Source of the DNA: a virus | IMG/VR virus record: IMGVR_UViG_3300045988_168563 | Location: 28,530-92,529 of that record | Length of the DNA stretch: 64,000 nucleotides | Reading direction: 5' to 3' (one strand) | Shown here: positions 2,366-16,255 of the stretch, piece by piece | Position numbering within the stretch: the stretch's first letter is position 1 | How the letters are laid out: the number at the start of each line of letters is the position of its first letter | The notes under the pieces: model-generated | Told to the model about the DNA's origin: nothing | Seen by the model: only the letters and a program-made list of their open reading frames with translations | The model's database searches: none | Program-made: the position numbers and the translations under genes

Positions 2366-2757
2366 TTCCGGCCCTGTGACGGCTTCAAATCTCCTCCCTG
2401 GACACTTGTAGCCTGTAGCGATTCTGCGGCCCCCTGAAGCTGTTCTACGCTTCTAGCCATAAAGAGTAGCTTTGAGGAGACGGTTCCTGCGCTGTCGGTG
2501 ACGAGGTAAAGACCGAAATAACTCTCGGCTTCCTCATTGGCATCGATGGCGTAGAGGACCTTATGGGTAGGCGTGTCTTTGAGGAAGGTGATGAGACCAG
2601 GCTCGAAGTCTGTGTACTTCTTGCTCTCATCCACCTGCCACAAGAGTGATGTCTCTGTCTTCTTTTCTTCCTCAAGCGTTCTTATGGCGAGTGCAGCTGC
2701 CCATATCACTAGTCCTATGAGGAAGAAAATGATTATGAATCTGAGTACTTCTTTCAT
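2362..2757 (-). CDS. small membrane-anchored protein
   Basis: 131-aa ORF with one N-terminal hydrophobic helix (FIIIFFLIGLVIWAAALAI) followed by a soluble domain. It is the first gene after terminator hairpin 2774-2804. Confidence 0.65.
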   Translation of the reverse strand: MKEVLRFIIIFFLIGLVIWAAALAIRTLEEEKKTETSLLWQVDESKKYTDFEPGLITFLKDTPTHKVLYAIDANEEAESYFGLYLVTDSAGTVSSKLLFMARSVEQLQGAAESLQATSVQGGDLKPSQGRK

Positions 2758-2773
2758 TGCTTATACTAATAAA

Positions 2774-2804
2774 GCCCACACCACCGTATTAGGGCGATGT
2801 GGGC
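2774..2804 (-). terminator. intrinsic terminator after gene 2811..3419
   Basis: Minus-strand RNA folds as GCCCACATCGCC-(C)TAATAC-GGTGGTGTGGGC (two G.U pairs that would be C.A on the plus strand), followed by TTTATTA. Confidence 0.6.
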
Positions 2805-2810
2805 GTATGG

Positions 2811-3419
2811 TTAGAGTTTGATGGTGTCTCTGATGATTTCCAGCATGAGCTTCATATCTATGTAGCTCTCGGTGTTGGCACGTGACTGCTCTAGGAAGCC
2901 ACCATCCTTTGTCTCATCTTCTCGCTTCTTGATCTCCTCAAGGACGTGCGCTGCAGCTTCCTTGATCTGTCTGAGCTGCTTCTTGGGATCTTTAGGAATC
3001 ACAGGCTCGTCCTCTTCTTCCTTGTTGTAGGTGCTCTTGATCTTAGTCATGATGGTATCAGCTACCTTAACCATCAGGCCTGAGTGTAGGTAATTGGCTA
3101 TGTCAAAGATGAAGTCTCGGTCTTCCTCAAGGATACGATCCTGAGCGCAGAAGGATAAAACCTCTGCTACATTGCGAGGATTGACTTGCTTACCTCGGTC
3201 CTTTGGATCCTTCTTGAGTTCCTTGAGCAACTCGCGTCGTGCGTAGTCAAGGGCTTTGAGGAGATCCTCCTTGCCTCCCTTGTCACGGAAGCGGATTACG
3301 TACTTGAGGATACATCCCTCTGCGAAAGAGAGGTTGAGGTTCTCGATGAGATCTAGAGGTTGGTAGTCGTATCCCTTGTAGTGTTCTCCGCCTACCTGGA
3401 TTGATTCTAGCTTATCCAT
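2811..3419 (-). CDS. DUF3310-family protein (paralog 1)
   Basis: N-terminus GGEHYKGYDYQPLDLIENLNLSFAEGCILKYVIRFRDKGGKEDLLKALDYARREL matches the DUF3310 pattern (HY..ie.id.i....f..gn.iKY..R...K...eDL.KA..Y). The C-terminal half is acidic and charged. Confidence 0.6.
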   Translation of the reverse strand: MDKLESIQVGGEHYKGYDYQPLDLIENLNLSFAEGCILKYVIRFRDKGGKEDLLKALDYARRELLKELKKDPKDRGKQVNPRNVAEVLSFCAQDRILEEDRDFIFDIANYLHSGLMVKVADTIMTKIKSTYNKEEEDEPVIPKDPKKQLRQIKEAAAHVLEEIKKREDETKDGGFLEQSRANTESYIDMKLMLEIIRDTIKL

Positions 3420-3646
3420 TTCTTACTTGTTCTTGTTGGTTCGTTAATTTGTTCTTGTACTCTTGCTATATAGGTGCTTGTGTCATCTATATGCTCCCTC
3501 AGATTTCTTAGCTCTTGGATTGATGGGTATCGATTCTCGAACTCACATCGATCTATGAGCATGTCTAGGTTGTGTTCTAGGACAACGAGCGTCGCTGATG
3601 CGTCACTAAGGTTGGCCAGGATCGTTTCTTTTGTACTCTGTTCCAT
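3407..3646 (-). CDS. hypothetical protein
   Basis: 79-aa ORF between the two DUF3310 genes. It overlaps both neighbours (13 nt and 41 nt). No motif recognised. Confidence 0.5.
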   Translation of the reverse strand: MEQSTKETILANLSDASATLVVLEHNLDMLIDRCEFENRYPSIQELRNLREHIDDTSTYIARVQEQINEPTRTSKKWIS

Positions 3647-4043
3647 GTTCGTGTGTAGGATACTCTATCTTCATCTGCATATCGATAAGGTGAGCGAGCT
3701 CTGCCATCTGGTAGTTGCAGATAAGCGTTATTACGATCATGAGGAAGTCCTGAGTTGTCTTGTCGAACTCCTTCTGCGAGACAAAGTCGCAGACCATTCT
3801 GAGATTATCCATCTCCTCAAGAACGATGCCATAGGTTGTCACGCGACTTGGGTAGCTATGACCGAACTCAGCGTAGTTTCTTGCTTTCTTCAGGTCCTGT
3901 AGGCCATTCTTCTTGCGATATCGCACGAGATACTTTAGGATGTTACCCTGGATGAAGTCGAACTTCATATCAGTGATAAACTTGATAGGCTCGTACTGAT
4001 AACCCTTGTAGTGGGCTTCTCCTTGGTACTCTGCTTTTTCCAT
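3606..4043 (-). CDS. DUF3310-family protein (paralog 2)
   Basis: GEAHYKGYQYEPIKFITDMKFDFIQGNILKYLVRYRKKNGLQDLKKARNYAE shows the same motif as 2811..3419. Confidence 0.6.
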   Translation of the reverse strand: MEKAEYQGEAHYKGYQYEPIKFITDMKFDFIQGNILKYLVRYRKKNGLQDLKKARNYAEFGHSYPSRVTTYGIVLEEMDNLRMVCDFVSQKEFDKTTQDFLMIVITLICNYQMAELAHLIDMQMKIEYPTHEHGTEYKRNDPGQP

Positions 4044-4047
4044 ATTG

Positions 4048-4611
4048 TTACTCTTTTTCTTTTGTGAGTTGAATTATCTCTTCGTCTAAGTCGATGCCAA
4101 GGATCCATCCGATAAGGAAGAGATCCTTCATTGCCCATAGAGTGTACTTTGCATCTTCCATGCTTCTGTACACGTTTGCAGCTAACCTAGCTTCAAAGTC
4201 AAAGGACTTGATATACTCTACAGTCTTTGGGTCCTCAACAAAGCTCGCATTGTAGAACGCTGGAAGGATAAACTCGTACGTATATGTTGGACTTTCTACG
4301 ATCTCTGTTATCTCTGCGTTCTGTACGACCGTCTCTGCGATCATCATCAGATAGTCGTAGATGTGATTGCCAGTTTTTTCAGCCGTAACTTGACCTTCCT
4401 TGTGGTTTCCGTACTTGAGGAAGCCGATAAGTGTGTCCACTCTATGCGCTGCAAGTCTCGTCTCTTCCTGGCTTGGTCTAATCTGTCGCTTAGCGTTGTA
4501 GAGTCGTAGGGCTGTAATCATGTCTACATAGCGCTTGCGTAGTAGCTTTAAGCCTTCTTCTTTTGAGGTCTTTGCGTACTCTATGCAGATCTCTCTTGCT
4601 GTCTTGCTCAT
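4048..4611 (-). CDS. hypothetical protein
   Basis: 187-aa ORF with an ATG start, 4 nt from the neighbouring gene. No motif recognised. Confidence 0.65.
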   Translation of the reverse strand: MSKTAREICIEYAKTSKEEGLKLLRKRYVDMITALRLYNAKRQIRPSQEETRLAAHRVDTLIGFLKYGNHKEGQVTAEKTGNHIYDYLMMIAETVVQNAEITEIVESPTYTYEFILPAFYNASFVEDPKTVEYIKSFDFEARLAANVYRSMEDAKYTLWAMKDLFLIGWILGIDLDEEIIQLTKEKE

Positions 4612-4622
4612 ACTATCTTGTC

Positions 4623-5342
4623 TTACTTGTTGCGTTTCTTTCTTCGTTCTACCATCTTGTCCTCTGTACGTAGGACCGAGAGGAGGAGCGTCATCGTTGC
4701 CTCTTTCGTGAGTTGCTTAGGACTGGCAACCTTATCATCCCTATCCCAGAAGTGATGGTACATGAGGAAACCAGGACCTGAGGATTCCATAGTTAGAACC
4801 CTATCTGTTCTGATGATATATTCTACCTGTCTATCTGTACCTGTGAATGTCTTGGCGTGGAATACACCGTCTACCTCATCGTACGCAGGGATGATGACAT
4901 TGTTCTCTACCTGTCTCTTCATCTCCTCAGGATCGTACTGCGTAGGCATAACAGCATATTCCCACTCCCAGAAGCGGTCTACAAGGATGTTGAATGTTAC
5001 TTCCCTGATCCTCTGTCGTACGAAGTTGCGATCTACAGAGCTTGTTCTAAAGCTGGTATGGTCAAACTCTTCCATAAATGAGTAGTTCACGTATGCAGCT
5101 GCTATGTGAGATGCAGCGTATGGTCCCCTAAAGAACGTTAGGTGCACCCTACGCTCGTTCTCGCCACTCAGTCTCTCCTCAGTATGCTGGATGTAATAAC
5201 AGTACTTCTTGCTGTTGTTAGGCACCATGAGGTATATGGCCTTGAGTTCGTACGCATAATAGCGCCACGGCCAGTTAAGCTTGCATCCTGAGGGTAGCTC
5301 CACGAGCTTGTTCATAAGCCCCTCAGCGGTCTTTCTGTCCAT
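4623..5342 (-). CDS. hypothetical protein
   Basis: 239-aa ORF. Its ATG overlaps the upstream stop (TAATG). No motif recognised. Confidence 0.7.
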   Translation of the reverse strand: MDRKTAEGLMNKLVELPSGCKLNWPWRYYAYELKAIYLMVPNNSKKYCYYIQHTEERLSGENERRVHLTFFRGPYAASHIAAAYVNYSFMEEFDHTSFRTSSVDRNFVRQRIREVTFNILVDRFWEWEYAVMPTQYDPEEMKRQVENNVIIPAYDEVDGVFHAKTFTGTDRQVEYIIRTDRVLTMESSGPGFLMYHHFWDRDDKVASPKQLTKEATMTLLLSVLRTEDKMVERRKKRNK

Positions 5343-8268: not shown

Positions 8269-9129
8269 TTAGAAGGGGAGACAGTCTGATTCGAAGAGGC
8301 CGGCGTGGAAGTTGTCATCAACTTCGAGGCGCTCCATCTCCTCGTAGTCCTCATCAGTCAGACGCTCACCAGTGTAACCGACCTTGTATTCACCGGTCTC
8401 TTCATCGAAGAACACCTCGAACTCATCACTGATGAAGGCCGACTCTCTCGCCATCTCCTCAGCGGCGATAGCCGCATTCTGAGTTAGCTCCATATCGAGG
8501 TCTAGCCAGTAATCCAGCTGAGCCATCCCACATAGCTTGCCGTAGAGAATACGATACTCTTCCTCAGTGGCAAACATACTAATGCCTGCCATAAGGTCTC
8601 TGTCTCTTGCTTCAGCACTGTCAAGGACGATCTTCTCGACCCATCCCATAGATTCCTTCTCATCAGTGTCATAGTAGAGGCATTCCTCAACACGACTGAA
8701 TGAGTAGGTGCGCTCAGCAAGCTCATCATAGCTGGATATATTAAGGTTAGACAATAGGGTTGACAATTCACAGGTATGCTCCTCCTCAGGAACAGCATAG
8801 CCGATTTCACCACGCTCTTCGGCATCGACGAAAGTATCGTACTTCTGACTGTCGAAGGCTACAAGACCATCAAACAGCGCACGATACTCAATATCTGTGG
8901 CGTGAGCCTTGACGATATCAGCAAGGTAGTCAGCTATGCAACCTTCTGCACAGCGACCTACAGCACGCTTGATATCATCAATATTACCATTGGTGCCATT
9001 ATACTTCAGCCCATCGAGGACGATATTAGCCACAGGAGACCACAAAGCCATAGCAAGCTCAGCATAAGAAGAGCACCAAACGTTAGACAGAAGGACGGAC
9101 GATTCACGGAGGGTCTTGATTGCTTCCAT
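8269..9129 (-). CDS. strongly acidic protein, first gene of the leftward block, tail ..ESDCLPF
   Basis: 286-aa ORF, visibly D/E-rich (DEFEVFFDEETGEYKVGYTGERLTDEDYEEMERLEVDDNF). I verified the C-terminal codons 8272-8286 as D-C-L-P-F followed by a stop. Terminator 8229-8260 follows. Confidence 0.7.
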   Translation of the reverse strand: MEAIKTLRESSVLLSNVWCSSYAELAMALWSPVANIVLDGLKYNGTNGNIDDIKRAVGRCAEGCIADYLADIVKAHATDIEYRALFDGLVAFDSQKYDTFVDAEERGEIGYAVPEEEHTCELSTLLSNLNISSYDELAERTYSFSRVEECLYYDTDEKESMGWVEKIVLDSAEARDRDLMAGISMFATEEEYRILYGKLCGMAQLDYWLDLDMELTQNAAIAAEEMARESAFISDEFEVFFDEETGEYKVGYTGERLTDEDYEEMERLEVDDNFHAGLFESDCLPF

Positions 9130-9729: not shown

Positions 9730-9774
9730 GTAGTCCTAAATCGGAGGTCATCAATATGATTGGTATTGGTACTA

Positions 9775-9815
9775 TGGTTGAGGAAGGGATGGTGTATTCT
9801 GGTTGAGGAAGGGAT
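9775..9815. repeat. direct repeat TGGTTGAGGAAGGGAT x2 (25-nt period)
   Basis: Perfect 16-mers at 9775-9790 and 9800-9815. Confidence 0.85.
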
Positions 9816-9902
9816 AGTAGATGCACTTAGTGATCCTGAGTGTGTGCTGTGTAGGTGCCGGACTTAGCTGTGTGTTCGGTGTGGCTGAGGTGGGAATGGT
9901 GT

Positions 9903-9956
9903 GGGTATTTTGGTTGAGGAGGGTGTAGATCATCCTGGGTATTTTGGTTGAGGAGG
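9903..9956. repeat. direct repeat GGGTATTTTGGTTGAGGAGG x2 (34-nt period)
   Basis: Perfect 20-mers at 9903-9922 and 9937-9956. They share the GGTTGAGGAGG/GGTTGAGGAAGG core with the 9775-9815 pair. The second copy supplies the -33 TTTG of cassette 0. Confidence 0.85.
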
Positions 9957-9966
9957 AAGAAGTGTG

Positions 9967-10054
9967 TATCTTTGGTGTGAGAAGTTTCGACATAACTGTT
10001 TGGTATTTATCGTAGGATACGTGTTGCCCGTGATGGGTGGCACGTATTCGTTTT
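9967..10054 (+). ncRNA. candidate small-RNA cassette 0 (promoter to terminator, no ORF)
   Basis: -33 TTTG at 9943-9946 and -7 TATCTTTG at 9967-9974 (20-nt spacer, canonical Bacteroidota arrangement). Terminator hairpin at 10017-10047 (13 bp including 3 G.U, GTGA loop), then TTTT at 10051-10054. Confidence 0.4.
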
Positions 10055-10059
10055 ATGTG

Positions 10060-10167
10060 TACCTTTGTGTTGCTGGGTTTTGAGCTTTTTCCCAGCACAT
10101 CATATTTCCATTGGTTTATAGTTTTACATGGTACGCGTTGTCTGAGAAGATAGCGCGTATCGCTTTT
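10060..10167 (+). ncRNA. candidate small-RNA cassette 1
   Basis: -7 TACCTTTG at 10060-10067. 5' hairpin TGCTGGG/CCCAGCA at 10071-10097. Terminator hairpin at 10132-10159 (12 bp, GAGA loop), then TTTT at 10164-10167. Confidence 0.4.
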
Positions 10168-10172
10168 ATGTA

Positions 10173-10256
10173 TATCTTTGCGGTAGGGGAGTCTTCCCCT
10201 CGTGTGTGCCATTGTTTGTATGCATCATCTCTATATGGGGTGGTGCATACTTCTTT
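10173..10256 (+). ncRNA. candidate small-RNA cassette 2
   Basis: -7 TATCTTTG at 10173-10180. 5' hairpin AGGGGA/TCCCCT at 10185-10200. Terminator hairpin at 10218-10250 (14 bp with G.U pairs), then TTCTTT. Confidence 0.4.
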
Positions 10257-10265
10257 GATATGTAT

Positions 10266-10350
10266 TATCTTTGTGGCGATAGGTAATTAGCTTCATATTG
10301 ATTGTTTAGTTAGGGTTACATGCACTGCTCCTCGGGGTGGTGCATGTTCT
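10266..10350 (+). ncRNA. candidate small-RNA cassette 3
   Basis: -7 TATCTTTG at 10266-10273. AGGTAATTAG motif at 10281-10290. Hairpin at 10318-10347 (12 bp). The T-tract is weak (TCTCGTAT). Confidence 0.35.
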
Positions 10351-10362
10351 CGTATAAAGGTG

Positions 10363-10453
10363 TATCTTTGCACTGTTGAGTCTCCCATACTATTTAGGTT
10401 AGTTGTTAAACTGGGTCTGCGCATCACTCTCATGAGTGGTGCGCATATCTTTT
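10363..10453 (+). ncRNA. candidate small-RNA cassette 4
   Basis: -7 TATCTTTG at 10363-10370. AGGTTAGTTG at 10396-10405. Hairpin at 10418-10445 (12 bp), then TTTT at 10450-10453. Confidence 0.4.
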
Positions 10454-10454
10454 G

Positions 10455-10549
10455 TACCTTTGTGTTGTGGATATAATAGGTTAATTGGCTAATCAAGTGT
10501 AGCTTGATTTTGGTACGCACTGCCTGGGAAGGTGGTGCGTATTGCTTTT
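10455..10549 (+). ncRNA. candidate small-RNA cassette 5
   Basis: -7 TACCTTTG at 10455-10462. AGGTTAATTG at 10478-10487. Small hairpin at 10491-10509. Terminator hairpin at 10514-10541 (11 bp), then TTTT at 10546-10549. Confidence 0.4.
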
Positions 10550-10570
10550 GGGGATTTGAGGAAAGGGTGG

Positions 10571-10690
10571 TATCTTTGCCTTGTAATAAATCTTATCGTT
10601 ATTCTTGGGCTGTGAGGTTAGTCCCACAATTTCCATTTCAAATTTGTCTATCAGCTGTGCGCTACTCGGGAGAGTGGCGCATGGTGTTTT
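10571..10690 (+). ncRNA. candidate small-RNA cassette 6
   Basis: -7 TATCTTTG at 10571-10578. AGGTTAGTCC at 10615-10624. Hairpin at 10658-10681 (10 bp, GGGA loop), then TTTT at 10687-10690. Confidence 0.4.
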
Positions 10691-10780
10691 GGTAGGTTGG
10701 GGATTATATATACCTTTGCGGTGAAGGGTGGCGACCTTTCTGCATCGTATCTTATCTTTTATCTCTGCTCCTCGGGGCTT

Positions 10781-10856
10781 GGAGTGTGATCCAAAGGCTT
10801 GGGCCTGACTTTGTCGGGTGGCTGGCGCCGAGGTGGTTCGATTCCCCCGCACTCTA
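10781..10856 (+). tRNA. non-canonical tRNA-like element 1 (possible aberrant or class II-like tRNA; anticodon unclear)
   Basis: 7-bp acceptor GGAGTGT/GCACTCT (two G.U). T arm GGTGG-TTCGATT-CCCCC (canonical T loop, one U-C mismatch). D arm CCA-AAGGCT-TGG with GG in the loop, and a 12-nt variable arm GGC-TGGC-GCC. The anticodon arm folds as CCTGAC-TTT-GTCGGG or with a 7-nt loop ACTTTGT lacking U33. No CCA is encoded. Confidence 0.3.
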
Positions 10857-10859
10857 CTA

Positions 10860-10916
10860 CTGACTGGTGCTGTAGGCACGCGTGACGACGCTAGGGTTTG
10901 ATTCCCTACGGTCAGG
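10860..10916 (+). ncRNA. tRNA-like minihelix element 2 (acceptor + T arm, truncated core)
   Basis: Perfect 7-bp acceptor CTGACTG/CGGTCAG (one G.U). T arm TAGGG-TTTGATT-CCCTA. Only 25 nt lie between them (two short hairpins, GTGC-TGTAG-GCAC and GCG-TGACGA-CGC), too short for D plus anticodon arms. It lies 3 nt after element 1. Confidence 0.3.
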
Positions 10917-11262
10917 TCTTATCACTGCTCTCTCCTCATGAGGAAGACAGCAACACATTGCGCTTGTAGGGCCCTATCCCCGAAGGCGATGGTCTGCGAC
11001 TGATAGGTCGGTCAAGCGGATAGTGGTGTGAGATGGCGGCGACTCAGTGATCCGTTCGGTACACTTTATTACTCACAAATGGGGGACACCAAAGACCTGC
11101 CTAAGATCCCCTGCCAATACGAAGGTATATCAGGCTACCTTCGAGTAGAGGTCGGACGATGACACCGAGACCTCGCAATGACGCTCACCTTTCCATAGGG
11201 TGGGCGTCGCCTTTTATACGCCACCACAATGTCCTCTTTCCTCAGGCCATATAGTTATGCCT

Positions 11263-11270
11263 TACCTTTG
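11263..11270 (+). promoter_or_regulatory. late-operon promoter -7 box (TACCTTTG)
   Basis: It matches Bacteroidota TAnnTTTG, lies 25 nt upstream of ATG 11295, and immediately follows terminator 11180-11215. Confidence 0.55.
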
Positions 11271-11294
11271 CGGTATAACATAGTACGTACATAT

Positions 11295-12773
11295 ATGGCA
11301 AAAGATAATCAACCACAAATATCAGTACCCCTGCGTGCAGCTGCTGACTCTACCAAGGTCAAGCGGTTCTATAGTAGTGGCAATGGTGCTGTCAATACCA
11401 CTGGGTTTGGCGAGTACATAAGCCAGCCTAATCAAGTTGAGAATGACAAGGACCCTGGGAACATCGTCTCTAAGCTAGCGGCTGCTGGAGCTATCGGATC
11501 TATCGGGGCTACGCTAGCTGCTATCACCGGTAGGGTGGGTGTCAATGCAGCCTACTCTGGTGGTAAGACCCTTGTCAAGCCTATCGTGAGGGCTGGCTAT
11601 GGGGCTGCAGCTGTCGGTAGGAACATTGCTGATAGGGTCATGAGGAAGGAGGTAATAGTACCTATTGGTGAGTCGGCTAAGGCTGCTATACAGAAGGCTG
11701 GTGAGTCTAAGACCCTCCTTGGTAGGATAGCCAATGCCGAAGCTGCTATCGTTGGTGACAAGGCTCTCAAGGGTGGAGCTAAGCTAGCTAAGTTCGCCAA
11801 GTACTCTAACATGATTAAGTGGGCTGGCCCACTCTCTACTGCCGCAAGCGCTGGGCTGTCCGCAATAGCCGCAAACGCCTCCCTGCACGGCAAGTATGAC
11901 CCCGAGAAGCTACCTAGATATAATATAGGTGAGTTAGGGAAGGATGTTCCAGGGTATAGGATAGGTAGCCGCGCTGGTCTAGTCGACCCAAACTTCGTTG
12001 GTGATAATATCACTGGTGCAGCTGTTAATCTTGCGAGGACGACGATTAGTGGTGGTCAGCAGGTTAAGGGTCTTATCAAGAAAGGCGGGAAGGCTGTGAT
12101 GGAGTTCTTCGGGGTACCTGAGGGTACAGCGGATAAGATTGCTGGTGCAGGATCAAGAGTCGCAGCTGGTATATTGACAGGTCCTCTGTCACATGATGCT
12201 GTCTATAATCAAGTTGACGGCTTCCTCAAGGGATATAGCACCGAAGGCAATGTTGATCCAGACAAGGTCTATGGTAAGGATATGCGCGGTCGTATGATGG
12301 CAGACCTCTTCGTCAGGGCTAAGATGCGCGGTATGGAGGGTGTGCCTAACTCTTACCTCGCTGTTAACTCAGCTGAGGAAGAGGCAGCTAAGCTCTACAA
12401 GGAAGGCAAGCTGGAGAAGGCTGCACTCGACAAGACACCTGCAGAGATCTTCTACAACCCATCAAAGGAGCGTGGCTACAATAAGGATCCTATGATGAAC
12501 ATGGCTGCATACTACCCAGGCGATGATAGGTACCCAGTCTATATGCATACCCTCAGACAAGCATACGCTGAGAAGCACGCAGGTAACAACCCTAACTCAG
12601 CTGAGTATAAGAAGTTCGAGCAGGTCTTCGATAGCTATCTCTCCTCAACCGCGACTAAGCGAGGTGGCGAGAATGAGGATATCAGAGATGAGATGAGGAA
12701 GGAAGCGTTTGACTACTACCACCAGAAGCGTAAGGCAGCTGCAGAGAAGCGGTATGAGCCTATCAAGAAGTAG
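11295..12773 (+). CDS. Gly/Ala-rich virion-associated protein candidate (first late gene)
   Basis: The track ORF starts at 11229, but a TACCTTTG -7 box sits at 11263-11270 inside that extension. The ATG at 11295 (atatATGgca, MAKDNQ..) has the A/T-rich context typical of the other starts. Function unknown. Confidence 0.7.
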   Translation: MAKDNQPQISVPLRAAADSTKVKRFYSSGNGAVNTTGFGEYISQPNQVENDKDPGNIVSKLAAAGAIGSIGATLAAITGRVGVNAAYSGGKTLVKPIVRAGYGAAAVGRNIADRVMRKEVIVPIGESAKAAIQKAGESKTLLGRIANAEAAIVGDKALKGGAKLAKFAKYSNMIKWAGPLSTAASAGLSAIAANASLHGKYDPEKLPRYNIGELGKDVPGYRIGSRAGLVDPNFVGDNITGAAVNLARTTISGGQQVKGLIKKGGKAVMEFFGVPEGTADKIAGAGSRVAAGILTGPLSHDAVYNQVDGFLKGYSTEGNVDPDKVYGKDMRGRMMADLFVRAKMRGMEGVPNSYLAVNSAEEEAAKLYKEGKLEKAALDKTPAEIFYNPSKERGYNKDPMMNMAAYYPGDDRYPVYMHTLRQAYAEKHAGNNPNSAEYKKFEQVFDSYLSSTATKRGGENEDIRDEMRKEAFDYYHQKRKAAAEKRYEPIKK

Positions 12774-13438: not shown

Positions 13439-14004
13439 TCAAGCTCTTCAAGAAAGAAGGGCTTGACATAGTGATCTCTGAGGAAGCCTACCTCCTCAAG
13501 CCGTTCGCCGATATCTGGAAAAGAGATAAGTCCAAGAATAAGCTAACGGCACAGCTGGAGCTGGCATTCATATACTTCTTTGCCGACCCCAGGTCAGAGT
13601 ACCAGATGTACAATGATCCTGAGGAAAGGACAAAGATGATAGTTGAGGGTTTAGGGATGGAGTCCGGATGGGCCCCATCCCCTCTCGTTACAGAGGCTAT
13701 CACTTTCTATGAGTCGTTCAAGCCCGTATCAGCTAAGCTACTGGATAGCACAAGAGGACTCATAAACAAACTGTCGGCGTTCCTAGAGGAGATCGACTTC
13801 CGCGCTGTGGATGATAAGGGTAAGCCCCTCTATCAGCCGAATACTATCACTAACACCATCAAGCAGCTACCAGCCTTGGTGTCTACCCTTAACGAGGTAG
13901 AGAAGACCATGAACTCTGATATTGAGGAGAGCGCCGCTATCAGAGGTAGCATGAGGAAGGCTGTGGGTGAGGATGCCTTTGACTTTAGTGACGATGACGA
14001 TTGA
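13435..14004 (+). CDS. hypothetical protein; small terminase subunit candidate by position only
   Basis: 189-aa ORF immediately upstream of TerL, overlapping it by 11 nt. It has an acidic tail (FDFSDDDD). No motif recognised. Confidence 0.35.
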   Translation: MIKLFKKEGLDIVISEEAYLLKPFADIWKRDKSKNKLTAQLELAFIYFFADPRSEYQMYNDPEERTKMIVEGLGMESGWAPSPLVTEAITFYESFKPVSAKLLDSTRGLINKLSAFLEEIDFRAVDDKGKPLYQPNTITNTIKQLPALVSTLNEVEKTMNSDIEESAAIRGSMRKAVGEDAFDFSDDDD

Positions 14005-16255
14005 GCTTAATGAATATCAGACACCGCTAGAGGTACTCACACCTGATATGCCTGAGGAGGTGAAGGAACAGATGGATGACTTCATCCAGTCTGTCCCCTT
14101 CATCCAGCACCTCATAAGCCCACACCGCAAGCGCGCTAAGGACCTACCACGTGACGAGCGCGGTCGTATCATAGTAGACATAGCCCATCCTCACATCATT
14201 GAGGATATGGATTACTTCAGGCCTGCAGCTATACACTTCGAGAAGCACGGCTGTTACACTAAGCTCAAGCCTAACACCAACCCTTCATCTCCCTTCGGGC
14301 AGTGGCTTCGTGAGGAGACAAGAAGAGTCCTTGATGGCTACGTGCGAGAGTCTGATGGCGAGTGGATCACAGGTGATCTGTACTACTACCTCAACTACAG
14401 CCCCATCATGGTCTCTAAGATCAGAGAGGACCAGCCTGGTGTTGCTGACCGCGTGGAGGCATTCCCAGAGATGTGGGAGGGTGTGTACTGGAGATACCAC
14501 TACCTGTATCAAGCGCGTAATGGAGGTATGTACAATGCCTTCCAAGGTGGTAATCATGCCTTTGAGCTAGCTCGTCGTGGTGCAGGTAAGTCCTACTCTC
14601 TGGCCTCACTCATGGCTAAGCGTCTCCTCGTCGGCGAGTCAAAGAAGGTGCAGAAGCGTGTGACTAGCGTGCTACTCGGTTATATCAAGGAGTACCTGCA
14701 AGACAAGGACGGCACGCTCTCTAAGTTTGAGCCTATGATGAACTTCGCTAGGTCTCATACCGAGTGGCCCAATAGTCTCGTGAGGAACAGCATGAGCGAT
14801 ATGATGTGGCGATGTGCATACGTCAATCCTCATACTGGTGCTGTCGAAGGCAAGAACAACGTGGTCATGGGGCTGCCTGTGAAGGACGATGACTCTAAGG
14901 CGCGTGGTAAGCGTGGTTGGATCTTCATCGAGGAGTTCGGTTCGTTCCCTTCCCTCATCGACCTGTACAACACCATCATGTACTCTGTTGAGGAGGGTGG
15001 TGTGACCTTCGCGCTTATCTATGGGGTAGGTACGGCTGGTTCTGATGCGTCTGAGTTCTCCTCAGCACAGGAGATCATGTACCACCCTGTGGCCTACAAG
15101 GTCTATAACGTGCCTAACGTCTATGACAAGGCCACAGGTGGTAGCAAGGATCGCTTCTGCTTCTTCTTCCCTGCATACGTAAACCGTAAGGGGTGCTACA
15201 ATAGTGATGGCGTGTCTGACGTAACAAGGGCTCTTTATGAGATCCTGATGGACAGGTATCGCATCAAGTACAGCACGACTAACCAGGACACGCTGATACG
15301 AAGGATAGCGGAAATGCCTATCGTTCCTCAGGAGGCTATACTGCAGGTCAAGGCTAGCTACTTTCCATCACATGCGCTGAGAGAGAGGCTGGCTGAGATA
15401 GACAATGATCCCTCCTTCTATGCAGGTGTCATCTCCTGTGAGCTATCGCGCAAGGGCTATGACGTGAGTGTGCATCCTGTCAGTGACCTTCCCATCCGTA
15501 ACTTCCCACTGCCAGACAATAAGTCTGCAGGGCATGTCGAGATCTTCGCTATGCCAGAGAAGGATGCTGATGGCAAGGTGCAGCAAGGTAGATACATCGC
15601 TGGTATGGACCCATACGACAACGACCAGGCGGATACCTCATCCTTAGGATCGTTCTTCGTCTTGGACCTCTTCACTGATGAGATCGTATGTGAGTACACC
15701 GGCAGGCCTAGCTTCTCGGATGACTTCTACCGCACGTGTTGTGATATAGCCATCCTCTACGACTGCCGCATCTGCTATGAGAATAACAAGAAGGGTCTCT
15801 TTGCGTACTGCTCAAGGTATAACCTCACACACCTCCTTGAGGATACCCTAGAGTTCCTCCGTGATAGAGACCTCCTCAAGGCTAGGCCTATTGGTAACGC
15901 AGCTAAGGGTGTGACGGCTACCGCCGGTATCAACGCCTATGCTAGGAAGAAGTTAGCTGAATGGCTCGTGATGCCTGTGAGTGTCACACGTCAGACAGAT
16001 GAGGGTGAGGTCTATGATTATGAGATACCCAATCTCTGCAGGATAAAGAATCGCGCTCTTCTTCAGGAGCTGATAGCTTGGAACGACATAGGTAACTTCG
16101 ACCGCGTGTCAGCTATGGGTATCCTCATGCTATACCGCGAGTCGATGCTCATCAGCTTCCAAGAGCACGATGAGGAGAAGCAAGAAGAGATAGATCAGAA
16201 GATGAACTTCTTTGATCGCAATCTGCGTGGCGGTAAGAGCAACCCTTATCTTTAA
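13994..16255 (+). CDS. terL: terminase large subunit
   Basis: Walker A-like RRGAGKSYS (GAGKS = 14579-14593), Walker B-like GWIFIEEFGSF, and a C-terminal nuclease-like IAGMDPYDNDQADTSSLGSFFVLD. The track start 13967 is GTG; the ATG at 13994 is preferred. Confidence 0.8.
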   Translation: MTIELNEYQTPLEVLTPDMPEEVKEQMDDFIQSVPFIQHLISPHRKRAKDLPRDERGRIIVDIAHPHIIEDMDYFRPAAIHFEKHGCYTKLKPNTNPSSPFGQWLREETRRVLDGYVRESDGEWITGDLYYYLNYSPIMVSKIREDQPGVADRVEAFPEMWEGVYWRYHYLYQARNGGMYNAFQGGNHAFELARRGAGKSYSLASLMAKRLLVGESKKVQKRVTSVLLGYIKEYLQDKDGTLSKFEPMMNFARSHTEWPNSLVRNSMSDMMWRCAYVNPHTGAVEGKNNVVMGLPVKDDDSKARGKRGWIFIEEFGSFPSLIDLYNTIMYSVEEGGVTFALIYGVGTAGSDASEFSSAQEIMYHPVAYKVYNVPNVYDKATGGSKDRFCFFFPAYVNRKGCYNSDGVSDVTRALYEILMDRYRIKYSTTNQDTLIRRIAEMPIVPQEAILQVKASYFPSHALRERLAEIDNDPSFYAGVISCELSRKGYDVSVHPVSDLPIRNFPLPDNKSAGHVEIFAMPEKDADGKVQQGRYIAGMDPYDNDQADTSSLGSFFVLDLFTDEIVCEYTGRPSFSDDFYRTCCDIAILYDCRICYENNKKGLFAYCSRYNLTHLLEDTLEFLRDRDLLKARPIGNAAKGVTATAGINAYARKKLAEWLVMPVSVTRQTDEGEVYDYEIPNLCRIKNRALLQELIAWNDIGNFDRVSAMGILMLYRESMLISFQEHDEEKQEEIDQKMNFFDRNLRGGKSNPYL

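What the first reader, a model, noticed from the sequence alone, without database searches (positions are those of the whole stretch)
10711..11215. A ~0.5 kb noncoding transcript unit carrying two abutting non-canonical tRNA-like modules
The last cassette is far longer than the others. It contains two acceptor/T-arm modules separated by 3 nt. Module 1 (10781-10856, 76 nt) has a 7-bp acceptor, a canonical TTCGATT T loop, a D arm with GG and a class II-like 12-nt variable arm. Its anticodon arm is aberrant, with either a TTT triloop or the loop ACTTTGT without U33. Module 2 (10860-10916, 57 nt) has a perfect acceptor and T arm but only 25 nt in between, so it cannot be a standard tRNA. Neither module encodes CCA. 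About 260 nt of helix-rich sequence follow before the terminator. crAss-like phages often carry tRNAs in this kind of location, and some lineages carry suppressor tRNAs. These two look more like tRNA mimics. They could act as processing handles for RNase P/Z, as CCA-adding or aminoacylation decoys, or as decoys for host anticodon nucleases. They could also be decaying tRNA genes.
Basis: partly seen in the sequence, partly recalled or inferred. Interest (0 to 1): 0.7.

Follow-up and report, generated by a model that had tools for sequence, protein, structure and literature searches.

The report
Two tRNA mimics in phage RNA
An uncultivated crAss-like phage makes a roughly 490-base noncoding RNA that starts with two conserved tRNA look-alikes lacking any anticodon loop and continues into an elaborate folded domain, a new variant of the structured RNAs that phages keep in their tRNA islands; its function is still unknown.

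Summary
Window 10781-10856 (TLS1) and 10860-10916 (TLS2) fold as cloverleaves 3 nt apart. They lie in a unit that runs from a Bacteroidetes-type promoter (10688-10718) to an intrinsic terminator (11179-11215).

ARAGORN and Rfam gathering thresholds call no tRNA. Below threshold, TLS2 resembles mascRNA and TLS1 resembles tRNA-Sec.

The whole unit occurs in 31 relatives (18 distinct sequences) of one narrow Crassvirales group. About 97% of proposed pairs are kept, against 39-48% in slid controls. Five pairs show compensatory double changes, including the pair next to TLS1's triloop, so there is no 7-nt anticodon loop.

The unit is 76-99% identical where third codon positions of the adjacent gene are 48-68% identical, so these are not decaying genes.

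Three distant relatives carry genuine tRNA-Ser(UGA) and tRNA-Ser(GCU) nested just after TLS2, so this is a tRNA-operon-type transcript. The 3' ~300 nt is also a conserved multi-helix RNA with no Rfam match.

Best reading (inferred, not shown): the mimics are handles for RNase P, RNase Z and the CCA-adding enzyme that punctuate and stabilise the transcript. Rival readings are decoys for tRNA-directed enzymes, or integral parts of a GOLLD/ROOL-like large RNA.

The parts
10688..10718 (+). Bacteroidetes-type two-box promoter: TTTG (10688-10691), 19 nt, TAccTTTG (10711-10718). The transcription start is inferred near 10724.
   Evidence: Pattern scan gives 3 sites in the window against 0.22 expected, all in this noncoding array. 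The site is invariant in relatives.
10724..10780 (+). 5' leader: a hairpin (about 10723-10740), a pyrimidine-rich single-stranded tract AUCGUAUCUUAUCUUUUAUCUCU, and a tetraloop hairpin GCUC-CUCG-GGGC (10767-10778). It ends with U at position -1 of TLS1.
   Evidence: 90-99% identical in the close group. The hairpins are kept in distant relatives, with UUCG in place of CUCG.
10781..10856 (+). TLS1, a class II-like tRNA mimic: acceptor 10781-87 with 10849-55; D arm 10790-10803; anticodon-less hairpin 10805-10817 with a triloop; variable arm 10818-10831; T arm 10832-10848 (UUCGAUU); discriminator A10856.
   Evidence: tRNA-Sec model 29.7 bits, below the gathering score of 47; two compensatory pairs in the triloop hairpin; four acceptor pairs change on one side and stay paired.
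10857..10859 (+). 3-nt spacer CUA (CA in most relatives) between the two mimics.
10860..10916 (+). TLS2, a 56-nt mini-cloverleaf plus discriminator G: acceptor 10860-66 with 10909-15; hairpin 10867-79; hairpin 10880-91; T arm 10892-10908 (UUUGAUU).
   Evidence: mascRNA-menRNA model 34.1 and 29.3 bits, below the gathering score of 42.5; RNAalifold recovers the fold unaided; three compensatory pairs; z = -3.7.
10916..11034 (+). P1 helix (10916-10929 with 11022-11034), directly continuous with the TLS2 acceptor stem. It encloses hairpins H1 (10930-46), H2 (10950-61), H3 (10962-87) and H4 (10992-11021). In relatives L042, L043 and L046, two true tRNA-Ser genes occupy the place of H1 and H2.
   Evidence: P1 has four independent one-sided changes that keep pairing; H3 and H4 have compensatory changes.
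11035..11056 (+). H5, a hairpin of variable sequence.
   Evidence: At least five different sequences across lineages; hairpins could be traced by eye in most but only weakly in the window's own version, and one search supports three outer pairs, one with compensatory changes.
11057..11112 (+). Conserved single-stranded tract (GUACACUUUAUUACUCACAAAU) and H6 (GGGGG 11081-85 with CCCCU 11108-12), which has a conserved loop CACCAAA...CCUAAGA. An alternative helix P1' (11025-30 with 11060-65) is mutually exclusive with P1.
11120..11174 (+). H7 (11120-27 with 11136-43) and H8 (11148-53 with 11169-74).
   Evidence: Each of the 16 sequences folded (13 of them distinct over this segment) gives two hairpins at the same places with unrelated stem sequences.
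11179..11215 (+). Intrinsic terminator (13-bp stem, 7 G-C pairs, then a U tract).

Best explanation
What is shown:
- Window 10724-11215 is a single noncoding RNA of about 490 nt with a host-type promoter, so it is presumably transcribed by host RNA polymerase.
- It sits in the slot where related crAss-like phages keep a tRNA island.
- It starts with two tandem tRNA mimics under purifying selection.
- The mimics keep the 'top half' of a tRNA: a 12-bp acceptor/T-arm stack, a T loop, and in TLS1 the D-loop GG.
- Each has a short closed hairpin where the anticodon loop would be, so neither can decode.

What is inferred (the mechanism):
- The mimics serve as recognition handles for the host tRNA-maturation enzymes.
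- RNase P would cut at 10780/10781 and at 10859/10860. RNase Z or exonucleases plus the CCA-adding enzyme would finish the 3' ends.
- This would cut the primary transcript into a conserved 57-nt leader RNA whose 3' end is made by RNase P, a 76-nt TLS1, and TLS2.
- TLS2 would either be released or stay stacked on helix P1 as the stable 5' cap of the ~300-nt structured 3' domain.
- This is the logic of MALAT1/mascRNA, of the gammaherpesvirus-68 tRNA-miRNA transcripts, and of the phage T4 tRNA-cluster precursor that also yields species I and II RNAs.

The function of the mature 3' domain is not known.
For: The structure is real and under selection:
- All 31 relatives carry the unit.
- 96.7% of cells are paired against 39-48% in slid controls, with 5 compensatory pairs.
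- The unit is 76-99% identical where third codon positions of the adjacent gene are 48-68%.

Not decoding tRNAs:
- ARAGORN finds none and no Rfam model reaches its gathering score.
- Covariation reaches the pair next to the triloop.

tRNA-processing context:
- Relatives L042, L043 and L046 have tRNA-Ser(UGA) and tRNA-Ser(GCU), scoring 51-58 bits on RF00005, in the same unit 10 nt after TLS2.
- Neither the mimics nor these tRNAs encode CCA, so 3' processing and CCA addition are needed in this host.
- Position -1 of TLS1 is an invariant U.

Other support:
- TLS2's nearest model is mascRNA, a known RNase P/RNase Z substrate.
- The leader released by such cleavage is itself 90-99% conserved in the close group.
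- Precedent: the T4 tRNA-cluster transcript is the precursor of eight tRNAs plus species I and II RNAs (PMC2330249).
Against: - There are no expression or end-mapping data; no cleavage has been shown.
- Simple punctuation does not obviously need two different mimics, nor a class II-type variable arm.
- TLS2 has no single-stranded 3' trailer if P1 forms, because G10916 is already the first P1 pair. That would hinder RNase Z.
- The invariance of the loops (for example GACG in TLS2) suggests contacts beyond those needed by RNase P.
Confidence: 0.42

Rival explanations
1. The processed mimics are themselves the effectors. They would act as decoys or sponges for host or defence proteins that read the acceptor/T-arm/elbow or the class II variable arm. 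Candidates are acceptor-end nucleotidyltransferase toxins of the MenT/AbiEii type, acceptor-stem tRNases, the CCA-adding enzyme, or a synthetase. The effect would be to protect or re-balance host and phage tRNAs during infection.
For: - Two different mimics are kept, one with a class II-type variable arm.
- Relatives add two class II tRNA-Ser genes in the same unit, which suggests pressure on class II tRNAs.
- Loops are invariant.
- Conservation is stronger than that of the true tRNAs, which are absent from 28 of the 31 instances.
Against: - No anticodon loop is present, so the best-known anticodon nucleases cannot be the target.
- No defence or counter-defence gene was recognised nearby.
- The idea is purely inferential.
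Confidence: 0.22
2. The mimics are not cut off. They are integral domains of one large RNA or RNA-protein particle, with TLS2 coaxially stacked on P1. This would be a smaller analogue of GOLLD/ROOL, which are phage RNAs near tRNA islands that can carry tRNAs in a linker and assemble into RNA-only cages. Alternatively it would resemble tmRNA or YrlA, where a tRNA-like domain docks a larger RNA onto tRNA-binding machinery.
For: - The TLS2 acceptor runs straight into P1 with no unpaired base.
- The 3' domain has at least 9 helices conserved in structure, several with completely different sequences between lineages.
- True tRNAs are nested inside the P1-enclosed region in relatives. This parallels tRNAs in the GOLLD linker (PMC12286853).
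- The unit occupies a tRNA-island position.
Against: - No Rfam hit to GOLLD, ROOL, tmRNA or YrlA even at E <= 10.
- ARAGORN finds no tmRNA.
- G3:U70 in TLS1 is not conserved: the pair is A-U in the window and G-C in others.
- If the nested tRNA-Ser genes of relatives are excised, P1 could hold only in trans.
- The alternative helix P1' competes with P1.
Confidence: 0.22
3. The mimics are aminoacylated by a synthetase that ignores the anticodon (SerRS, LeuRS or AlaRS) and donate the amino acid outside the ribosome, or they are otherwise unusual but functional acceptors.
For: - TLS1 has a variable arm, G2:C71 and A73, and G3.U70 in 9 of 18 distinct sequences.
- The acceptor ends are intact.
Against: - G3.U70 is replaced by A-U (5 sequences, including the window) or G-C (4 sequences).
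- The variable arm stem is only 3 bp.
- TLS1 has G, not U, at position 8.
- No aminoacyl-transferase gene was recognised nearby.
Confidence: 0.06
4. The modules are decaying tRNA pseudogenes, or an attP-type copy of a host tRNA 3' half, with no function of their own.
For: - tRNA detectors fail.
- The window lineage lacks the tRNA-Ser pair that distant relatives have.
Against: - Compensatory changes keep every helix.
- The modules are far better conserved than third codon positions next door.
- They are present in all 31 relatives.
- No exact copy of either T-arm/acceptor 3' half exists in 185,579 bacterial and archaeal species genomes.
Confidence: 0.03

Closest known systems
mascRNA / menRNA (Rfam RF01684), the tRNA-like small RNAs cut from vertebrate MALAT1 and NEAT1
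   Same: TLS2 is a 56-nt cloverleaf without linker nucleotides. It has a 7-bp acceptor, a 5-bp T arm and two short inner hairpins, with no anticodon loop and no encoded CCA. It is embedded in a longer noncoding transcript. RF01684 is its best Rfam match (34.1 and 29.3 bits). mascRNA is made by RNase P and RNase Z and then receives CCA (established knowledge; PMC8457004 for the MALAT1 context).
   Different: The score is below the gathering score of 42.5. mascRNA is a vertebrate nuclear RNA at the 3' end of its host RNA, whereas TLS2 is in a phage, near the 5' end, and follows a second mimic. The resemblance is convergent, not homologous.
Phage T4 tRNA-cluster transcript with species I and II stable RNAs
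   Same: A phage transcript that mixes tRNAs with other stable structured RNAs of unknown function and is processed by the tRNA-maturation machinery (PMC2330249). Here, relatives carry two true tRNAs in the same unit.
   Different: There is no sequence relationship, and T4 infects a different host phylum. The T4 RNAs are not known as a tandem pair of complete anticodon-less cloverleaves followed by a 300-nt domain.
GOLLD and ROOL large ornate RNAs
   Same: Phage or prophage origin, next to tRNA islands, many helices, unknown function. tRNAs are sometimes inside a GOLLD linker (PMC12286853, PMC5737381), as the tRNA-Ser pair is inside the P1-enclosed region in L042, L043 and L046.
   Different: No match to RF01998-type models at E <= 10. 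This RNA is shorter (about 490 nt against 580 to over 800 nt). Its distribution is very narrow (one phage group), and oligomerisation is untested.
Gammaherpesvirus-68 tRNA-miRNA-encoded RNAs (TMERs)
   Same: Viral, non-decoding tRNA-like modules head a noncoding transcript and recruit host tRNA-processing enzymes to release downstream structured RNAs (PMC4337559).
   Different: TMERs are from a eukaryotic virus, are transcribed by RNA polymerase III, and carry pre-miRNA hairpins downstream.
Bacterial Y RNA-like YrlA and tmRNA tRNA-like domains
   Same: A tRNA-like module with T arm and acceptor is fused to another functional RNA domain. YrlA relatives occur in phages (PMC4201824).
   Different: There are no Rfam or ARAGORN hits. 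In YrlA and tmRNA the tRNA-like domain is formed with or within the rest of the molecule, whereas here both mimics are self-contained cloverleaves.

Membership tests
tRNA (Rfam RF00005 / ARAGORN) | Detected by tRNA covariance model at or above 29 bits, or by ARAGORN | tested here: not met
   ARAGORN finds 0 genes in the window. Nothing in the window reaches any gathering score. By contrast, the tRNA-Ser genes of relatives score 51-58 bits.
tRNA (Rfam RF00005 / ARAGORN) | 7-nt anticodon loop with U33 | tested here: not met
   TLS1 has a 5-7-bp stem closed by a 3-nt loop (4 nt in distant relatives). The pairs that would lie inside a 7-nt loop covary. TLS2 has a 4-bp stem with loop GACG.
tRNA (Rfam RF00005 / ARAGORN) | 12-bp acceptor/T-arm stack with a T loop of the UUCRANY type | tested here: met
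   TLS1 is 7+5 (with a U.C mismatch) or 8+4 with a bulged U, loop UUCGAUU. TLS2 is 7+5, loop UUUGAUU.
tRNA-Sec (RF01852) | Score at or above 47 bits; UCA anticodon | tested here: not met
   Scores are 29.7 and 29.0 bits, and there is no anticodon loop.
mascRNA-menRNA (RF01684) | Score at or above 42.5 bits | tested here: not met
   Scores are 34.1 bits (E = 1.9e-4) and 29.3 bits.
mascRNA-menRNA (RF01684) | Produced by RNase P and RNase Z cleavage and CCA addition | not testable with these tools
   This needs RNA end mapping or in vitro cleavage.
tmRNA | Detected by ARAGORN or Rfam; alanine identity G3:U70; tag reading frame | tested here: not met
   ARAGORN finds no tmRNA and there is no Rfam hit. 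The TLS1 3:70 pair varies between G.U, A-U and G-C, and TLS2 has G3-C70. Indels rule out a conserved reading frame.
GOLLD / ROOL | Match to the family covariance model | tested here: not met
   No hit at E <= 10 in a 3-kb or an 0.8-kb search.
GOLLD / ROOL | Phage-borne, next to or containing tRNAs, many conserved helices | tested here: met
GOLLD / ROOL | Homo-oligomeric RNA-only cage | not testable with these tools
   This needs cryo-EM or light scattering on the transcript.
YrlA (bacterial Y RNA) | Match to the model; Ro-binding stem closing the molecule; rsr gene nearby | tested here: not met
   There is no Rfam hit, and no Ro-like protein was recognised among the neighbours scanned.

The most novel reading that the evidence does not exclude
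The unit is the first example of a new class of ornate phage RNA. In this reading, two permanently attached anticodon-less tRNA mimics are working parts of a ~490-nt RNA machine. They would either present tRNA-shaped bait to tRNA-directed host immunity or toxins, or dock a structured RNA (possibly a multimer, as in GOLLD/ROOL) onto tRNA-binding machinery. The true tRNA-Ser genes nested in relatives would be optional cargo.
Probability: 0.25. Interest if true: 0.85.

Novelty: new variant of a known kind. Interest (0 to 1): 0.62.

Why it matters
- crAss-like phages are among the most abundant human-associated viruses, and almost nothing is known about their noncoding RNAs.
- This is a well-supported case of tRNA mimicry in a DNA phage. 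Two different anticodon-less cloverleaves are kept under stronger constraint than the real tRNAs beside them, and they are fused to a large conserved fold.
- The coordinates predict cleavage sites exactly, so the case gives a concrete substrate for testing whether phages use tRNA-shaped modules as processing signals, as decoys, or as parts of larger RNA assemblies. That bears on the open question of what GOLLD/ROOL-type RNAs near tRNA islands do.
- It also shows that tRNA detectors miss such elements entirely.

Tried and rejected
- **DNA similarity to GenBank phages:** no match for 9800-11300. The lineage has no sequenced isolate; the best terminase identity is 52%.
- **Neighbouring proteins:** PHROG and Pfam scans found nothing related to RNA or tRNA.
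- **The 492-aa protein downstream:** it has only 13 homologue clusters, all in this phage group. Its AlphaFold model is unusable (pLDDT 37.5), so no fold search was run.
- **Wider distribution:**
  - Exact-pattern scans of IMG/VR and of metagenomes, followed by the covariance model and blastn, found only the same ~90-kb phage group. The other 17-mer and 16-mer hits are chance.
  - The sister group L062-L070 (terminase 57-58% identical; L068 43%) has no copy by covariance model or nhmmer.
  - No copy of either T-arm/acceptor half occurs in 185,579 bacterial and archaeal genomes, which argues against an attP or host-tRNA origin.
- **Antisense targets:** the two conserved single-stranded tracts have no further match, on either strand, elsewhere in the window.
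- **'H1/H2 are remnants of the two tRNA-Ser genes':** this looked plausible by eye in alignment A2, but the alignment score is reached by 83 of 500 shuffles. The direction of the gain or loss is left open.
- **AlaRS identity:** considered for TLS1 and rejected because G3:U70 is not conserved.
- **Protein coding:** rejected for both strands because single-base indels are scattered through the alignment and substitutions are compensatory.
Full report
**Setting**

The window is from a crAss-like phage. Its large terminase (13967-16255) matches phrog_6681. It is 50-52% identical to the terminases of IAS virus, cr85_1 and the PhiCrAssBcn Bacteroides phages, with nothing closer in GenBank. Leftward genes end at 9129, and the rightward late module starts at 11295 with a 492-aa protein of unknown function.

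The 2.1 kb between them is noncoding. It holds a row of short units, each with the Bacteroidetes -7 motif TAnnTTTG and an intrinsic terminator. The finding is the last and longest of these units.

The full two-box promoter TTTG-N19-TAccTTTG lies at 10688-10718. The window has three such sites against 0.22 expected, all inside this array. The terminator is at 11179-11209, followed by a U tract. The transcript is therefore about 10724-11215, roughly 490 nt. This is inferred from motifs; no RNA data exist.

**Checking the observation**

Reading the sequence confirms both modules.

TLS1 (10781-10856):
- A 7-bp acceptor stem, including two G.U pairs.
- A D arm with GG in its loop.
- A hairpin closed by the triloop UUU.
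- A 14-nt variable region with a 3-bp stem.
- A T arm with loop UUCGAUU, and discriminator A.

TLS2 (10860-10915, plus G10916):
- A 7-bp acceptor stem and a 5-bp T arm with loop UUUGAUU.
- Two 4-bp hairpins in between, with no linker bases.

They are 3 nt apart, and neither encodes CCA.

Results from the detectors and folding:
- ARAGORN finds no tRNA or tmRNA in the 64 kb, and nothing reaches an Rfam gathering score.
- In a permissive 3-kb search, TLS2 matches mascRNA-menRNA over its full length (34.1 bits, E = 1.9e-4, gathering score 42.5). TLS1 matches tRNA-Sec (29.7 bits, E = 3.8e-3, gathering score 47). A different haplotype from a relative gives the same two hits.
- Folded alone, each module gives the cloverleaf as its minimum-free-energy structure. 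TLS2 has z = -3.7, while TLS1 has z = -1.2 and is not significant on its own.
- For TLS1 the thermodynamic fold prefers an 8-bp acceptor and a 4-bp T stem with a bulged U. This accounts for the invariant U.C 'mismatch' of the 7+5 drawing.

**Relatives and covariation**

The downstream protein led to 15 IMG/VR contigs of about 90 kb. All of them carry the whole 505-nt stretch at 86-96% identity. The most divergent protein homologues (62-73% identity) led to more distant contigs L042-L046. A metagenome scan added further contigs of the same phage group but no new lineage.

A covariance model of the two modules (R1) finds 31 instances, 18 of them distinct, all scoring 133-168 bits. For comparison, tandem genuine tRNAs of IAS virus score only 14-23 bits.

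On this alignment:
- 96.7% of cells form standard pairs, against 39-48% when the 3' partners are slid by 1-3 columns.
- Five pairs show changes on both sides: two in the TLS1 triloop hairpin (G-C/A-U/U-A and G-C/A-U), one in the first TLS2 hairpin (A-U/G-C), and two in the second (U-A/G-C and G-C/C-G).
- Four TLS1 acceptor pairs and three TLS2 acceptor pairs vary on one side and stay paired.

The same result holds on an independent MAFFT alignment, and RNAalifold recovers the TLS2 cloverleaf unaided.

One caveat applies: the sequences fall into few lineages, so the compensatory changes represent a small number of events.

**Selection**

Across relatives, third codon positions of the adjacent 492-aa gene are only 53-68% identical to the window (48-57% in the distant group). 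L001 is the exception, with a near-identical gene (98%). In the close group the leader is 90-99% identical, TLS1+TLS2 85-97% and the 3' core 82-97%. In the distant group TLS1+TLS2 is 76-79% identical. Single-base indels are scattered through the alignment, so no reading frame is conserved on either strand.

The modules are therefore functional RNA elements, not decaying genes. They are also not copies of a host tRNA end: no exact match to either T-arm/acceptor half exists in 185,579 species genomes.

**The key piece of context**

In the distant relatives L042, L043 and L046, the ten bases GGUCUUAUCA that follow TLS2 are followed by two genuine class II tRNA genes, tRNA-Ser(UGA) and tRNA-Ser(GCU). 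ARAGORN calls both, and they score 51-58 bits on RF00005. After them the alignment with the window resumes.

The unit is therefore a tRNA-operon-type transcript. The true tRNAs are optional, being absent from the window and from its 27 close relatives. The two mimics and the rest are present in all instances.

Whether the window lineage lost the tRNAs or the other lineage gained them is open. The by-eye resemblance of 10926-10968 to tRNA remnants is not significant (83 of 500 shuffles).

Position agrees with this picture. IAS virus has 18 tRNA genes immediately upstream of, and co-oriented with, its terminase module.

**The 3' domain**

The remaining ~300 nt is also a conserved structured RNA.
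- Helix P1 (10916-10929 with 11022-11034) starts at the TLS2 discriminator, so the TLS2 acceptor stem and P1 are contiguous. P1 has four independent one-sided changes that keep pairing.
- P1 encloses hairpins H1-H4 in the window. In the distant relatives it encloses the two tRNA-Ser genes plus H3 and H4.
- H3 and H4 show compensatory changes.
- H5, H7 and H8 have unrelated sequences in different lineages. H7 and H8 fold into hairpins at the same places in every sequence tested. H5 varies across at least five sequence versions, and its hairpin could be traced by eye in most of them but only weakly in the window's own.
- Two single-stranded tracts and the H6 loop are nearly invariant.
- An alternative helix P1' (11025-11030 with 11060-11065) is mutually exclusive with P1. 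It also has consistent one-sided changes. Which helix forms, or whether both do at different stages, cannot be decided here.
- No Rfam family matches this domain at E <= 10, apart from one weak reverse-strand chance match (sR24, 16.2 bits, E = 2.9, 10905-10943).

**Mechanism**

The following are shown:
- The mimics keep what enzymes that read the top half of a tRNA need, and they lack what decoding needs.
- They lie in a transcript that, in relatives, must be processed by the tRNA-maturation machinery.
- CCA is not encoded for the mimics or for the true tRNAs.
- Position -1 of TLS1 is an invariant U.
- The leader that RNase P would release is highly conserved.

The inferred mechanism is that RNase P, and RNase Z or exonucleases plus the CCA-adding enzyme, use the mimics as handles. 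This would cut the transcript into defined, stable pieces: leader, TLS1, TLS2 and the 3' domain. TLS2 may instead remain on P1 as a protective cap. This is how mascRNA, the gammaherpesvirus TMERs and the T4 tRNA-cluster precursor work (PMC8457004, PMC4337559, PMC2330249). I put this at about 0.4.

The main rivals are about 0.2 each:
- The released mimics are decoys for proteins that read the acceptor end, elbow or class II variable arm. The co-occurrence with two class II tRNA-Ser genes hints at this. The missing anticodon loop argues against anticodon nucleases as the target.
- The mimics stay as working domains of a larger RNA, in the manner of GOLLD/ROOL. Those RNAs sit near phage tRNA islands and sometimes carry tRNAs in a linker (PMC12286853, PMC5737381).

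Aminoacylation-based roles are unlikely, because the only recognisable identity element, G3.U70 in TLS1, is not conserved. Pseudogenes are excluded.

**Novelty and score**

tRNA mimicry and tRNA-island-associated phage RNAs are both known kinds. No known family claims these elements: every membership test by model score failed.

The particular architecture appears undescribed in the literature I could search. It consists of two different self-contained anticodon-less cloverleaves in tandem, contiguous with a conserved multi-helix domain that can host true tRNAs.

Its distribution is narrow. It is limited to one genus-level Crassvirales group and is absent from the sister group. I rate it a new variant of a known kind, with interest of about 0.6.

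Noticed in passing
window 9958-10700: Seven short units, each with a TAnnTTTG promoter motif and an intrinsic terminator (about 90-130 nt each). They are 88-100% identical across most of the close relatives (two of them drop to about 80% or are missing in one subgroup), while the adjacent 492-aa gene is only 81-83% identical at the nucleotide level where it aligns over its full length. They are probably a battery of small phage RNAs. Their function is unknown.
   Followed up: partly
window 9766-9956: Four copies of a 21-nt repeat (TGGGTATTTTGGTTGAGGAGG and variants), with spacings of 25, 111 and 34 nt, at the left edge of the noncoding array. They look like iterons or regulator-binding sites. 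The region has a strong positive GC skew.
   Followed up: no
L042 543-720; L043 3473-3650; L046 1379-1556: Distant relatives carry tRNA-Ser(UGA) and tRNA-Ser(GCU) nested between TLS2 and hairpin H3 of the same unit. Neither encodes CCA, and the first has U rather than G as discriminator.
   Followed up: yes
window 10781-10916 compared with 11295-12773, across loci L001-L015: Haplotypes of the mimics and of the adjacent gene are uncoupled. In L001 the gene is 99% identical (aa) but TLS1+2 only 86% (nt). In L004 the gene is 83% (aa) but TLS1+2 is 97%. This indicates recombination between co-circulating phages inside the noncoding array.
   Followed up: partly
window 11022-11034 with 10916-10929, or 11025-11030 with 11060-11065: Two mutually exclusive helices (P1 and P1') share the invariant segment AGUGGUGUGAGAU. 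Both are supported only by one-sided changes that keep pairing. This could be a conformational switch, or precursor versus mature folds.
   Followed up: partly
L136 (IAS virus NC_049978) 2463-4861: ARAGORN places all 18 tRNA genes on the + strand, co-oriented with the terminase module. The RefSeq feature table as returned lists them on the - strand. The annotation strand may be wrong.
   Followed up: partly
window 11229-12773: Several databases call the downstream protein with 513-514 aa, starting at the ATG at 11229. That start lies upstream of the TAccTTTG motif at 11264-11271, and the 492-aa form (ATG 11295, MAKDNQPQ...) is the one shared by all homologues. The protein is Ala/Gly-rich and helical, and no family matches it.
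   Followed up: partly
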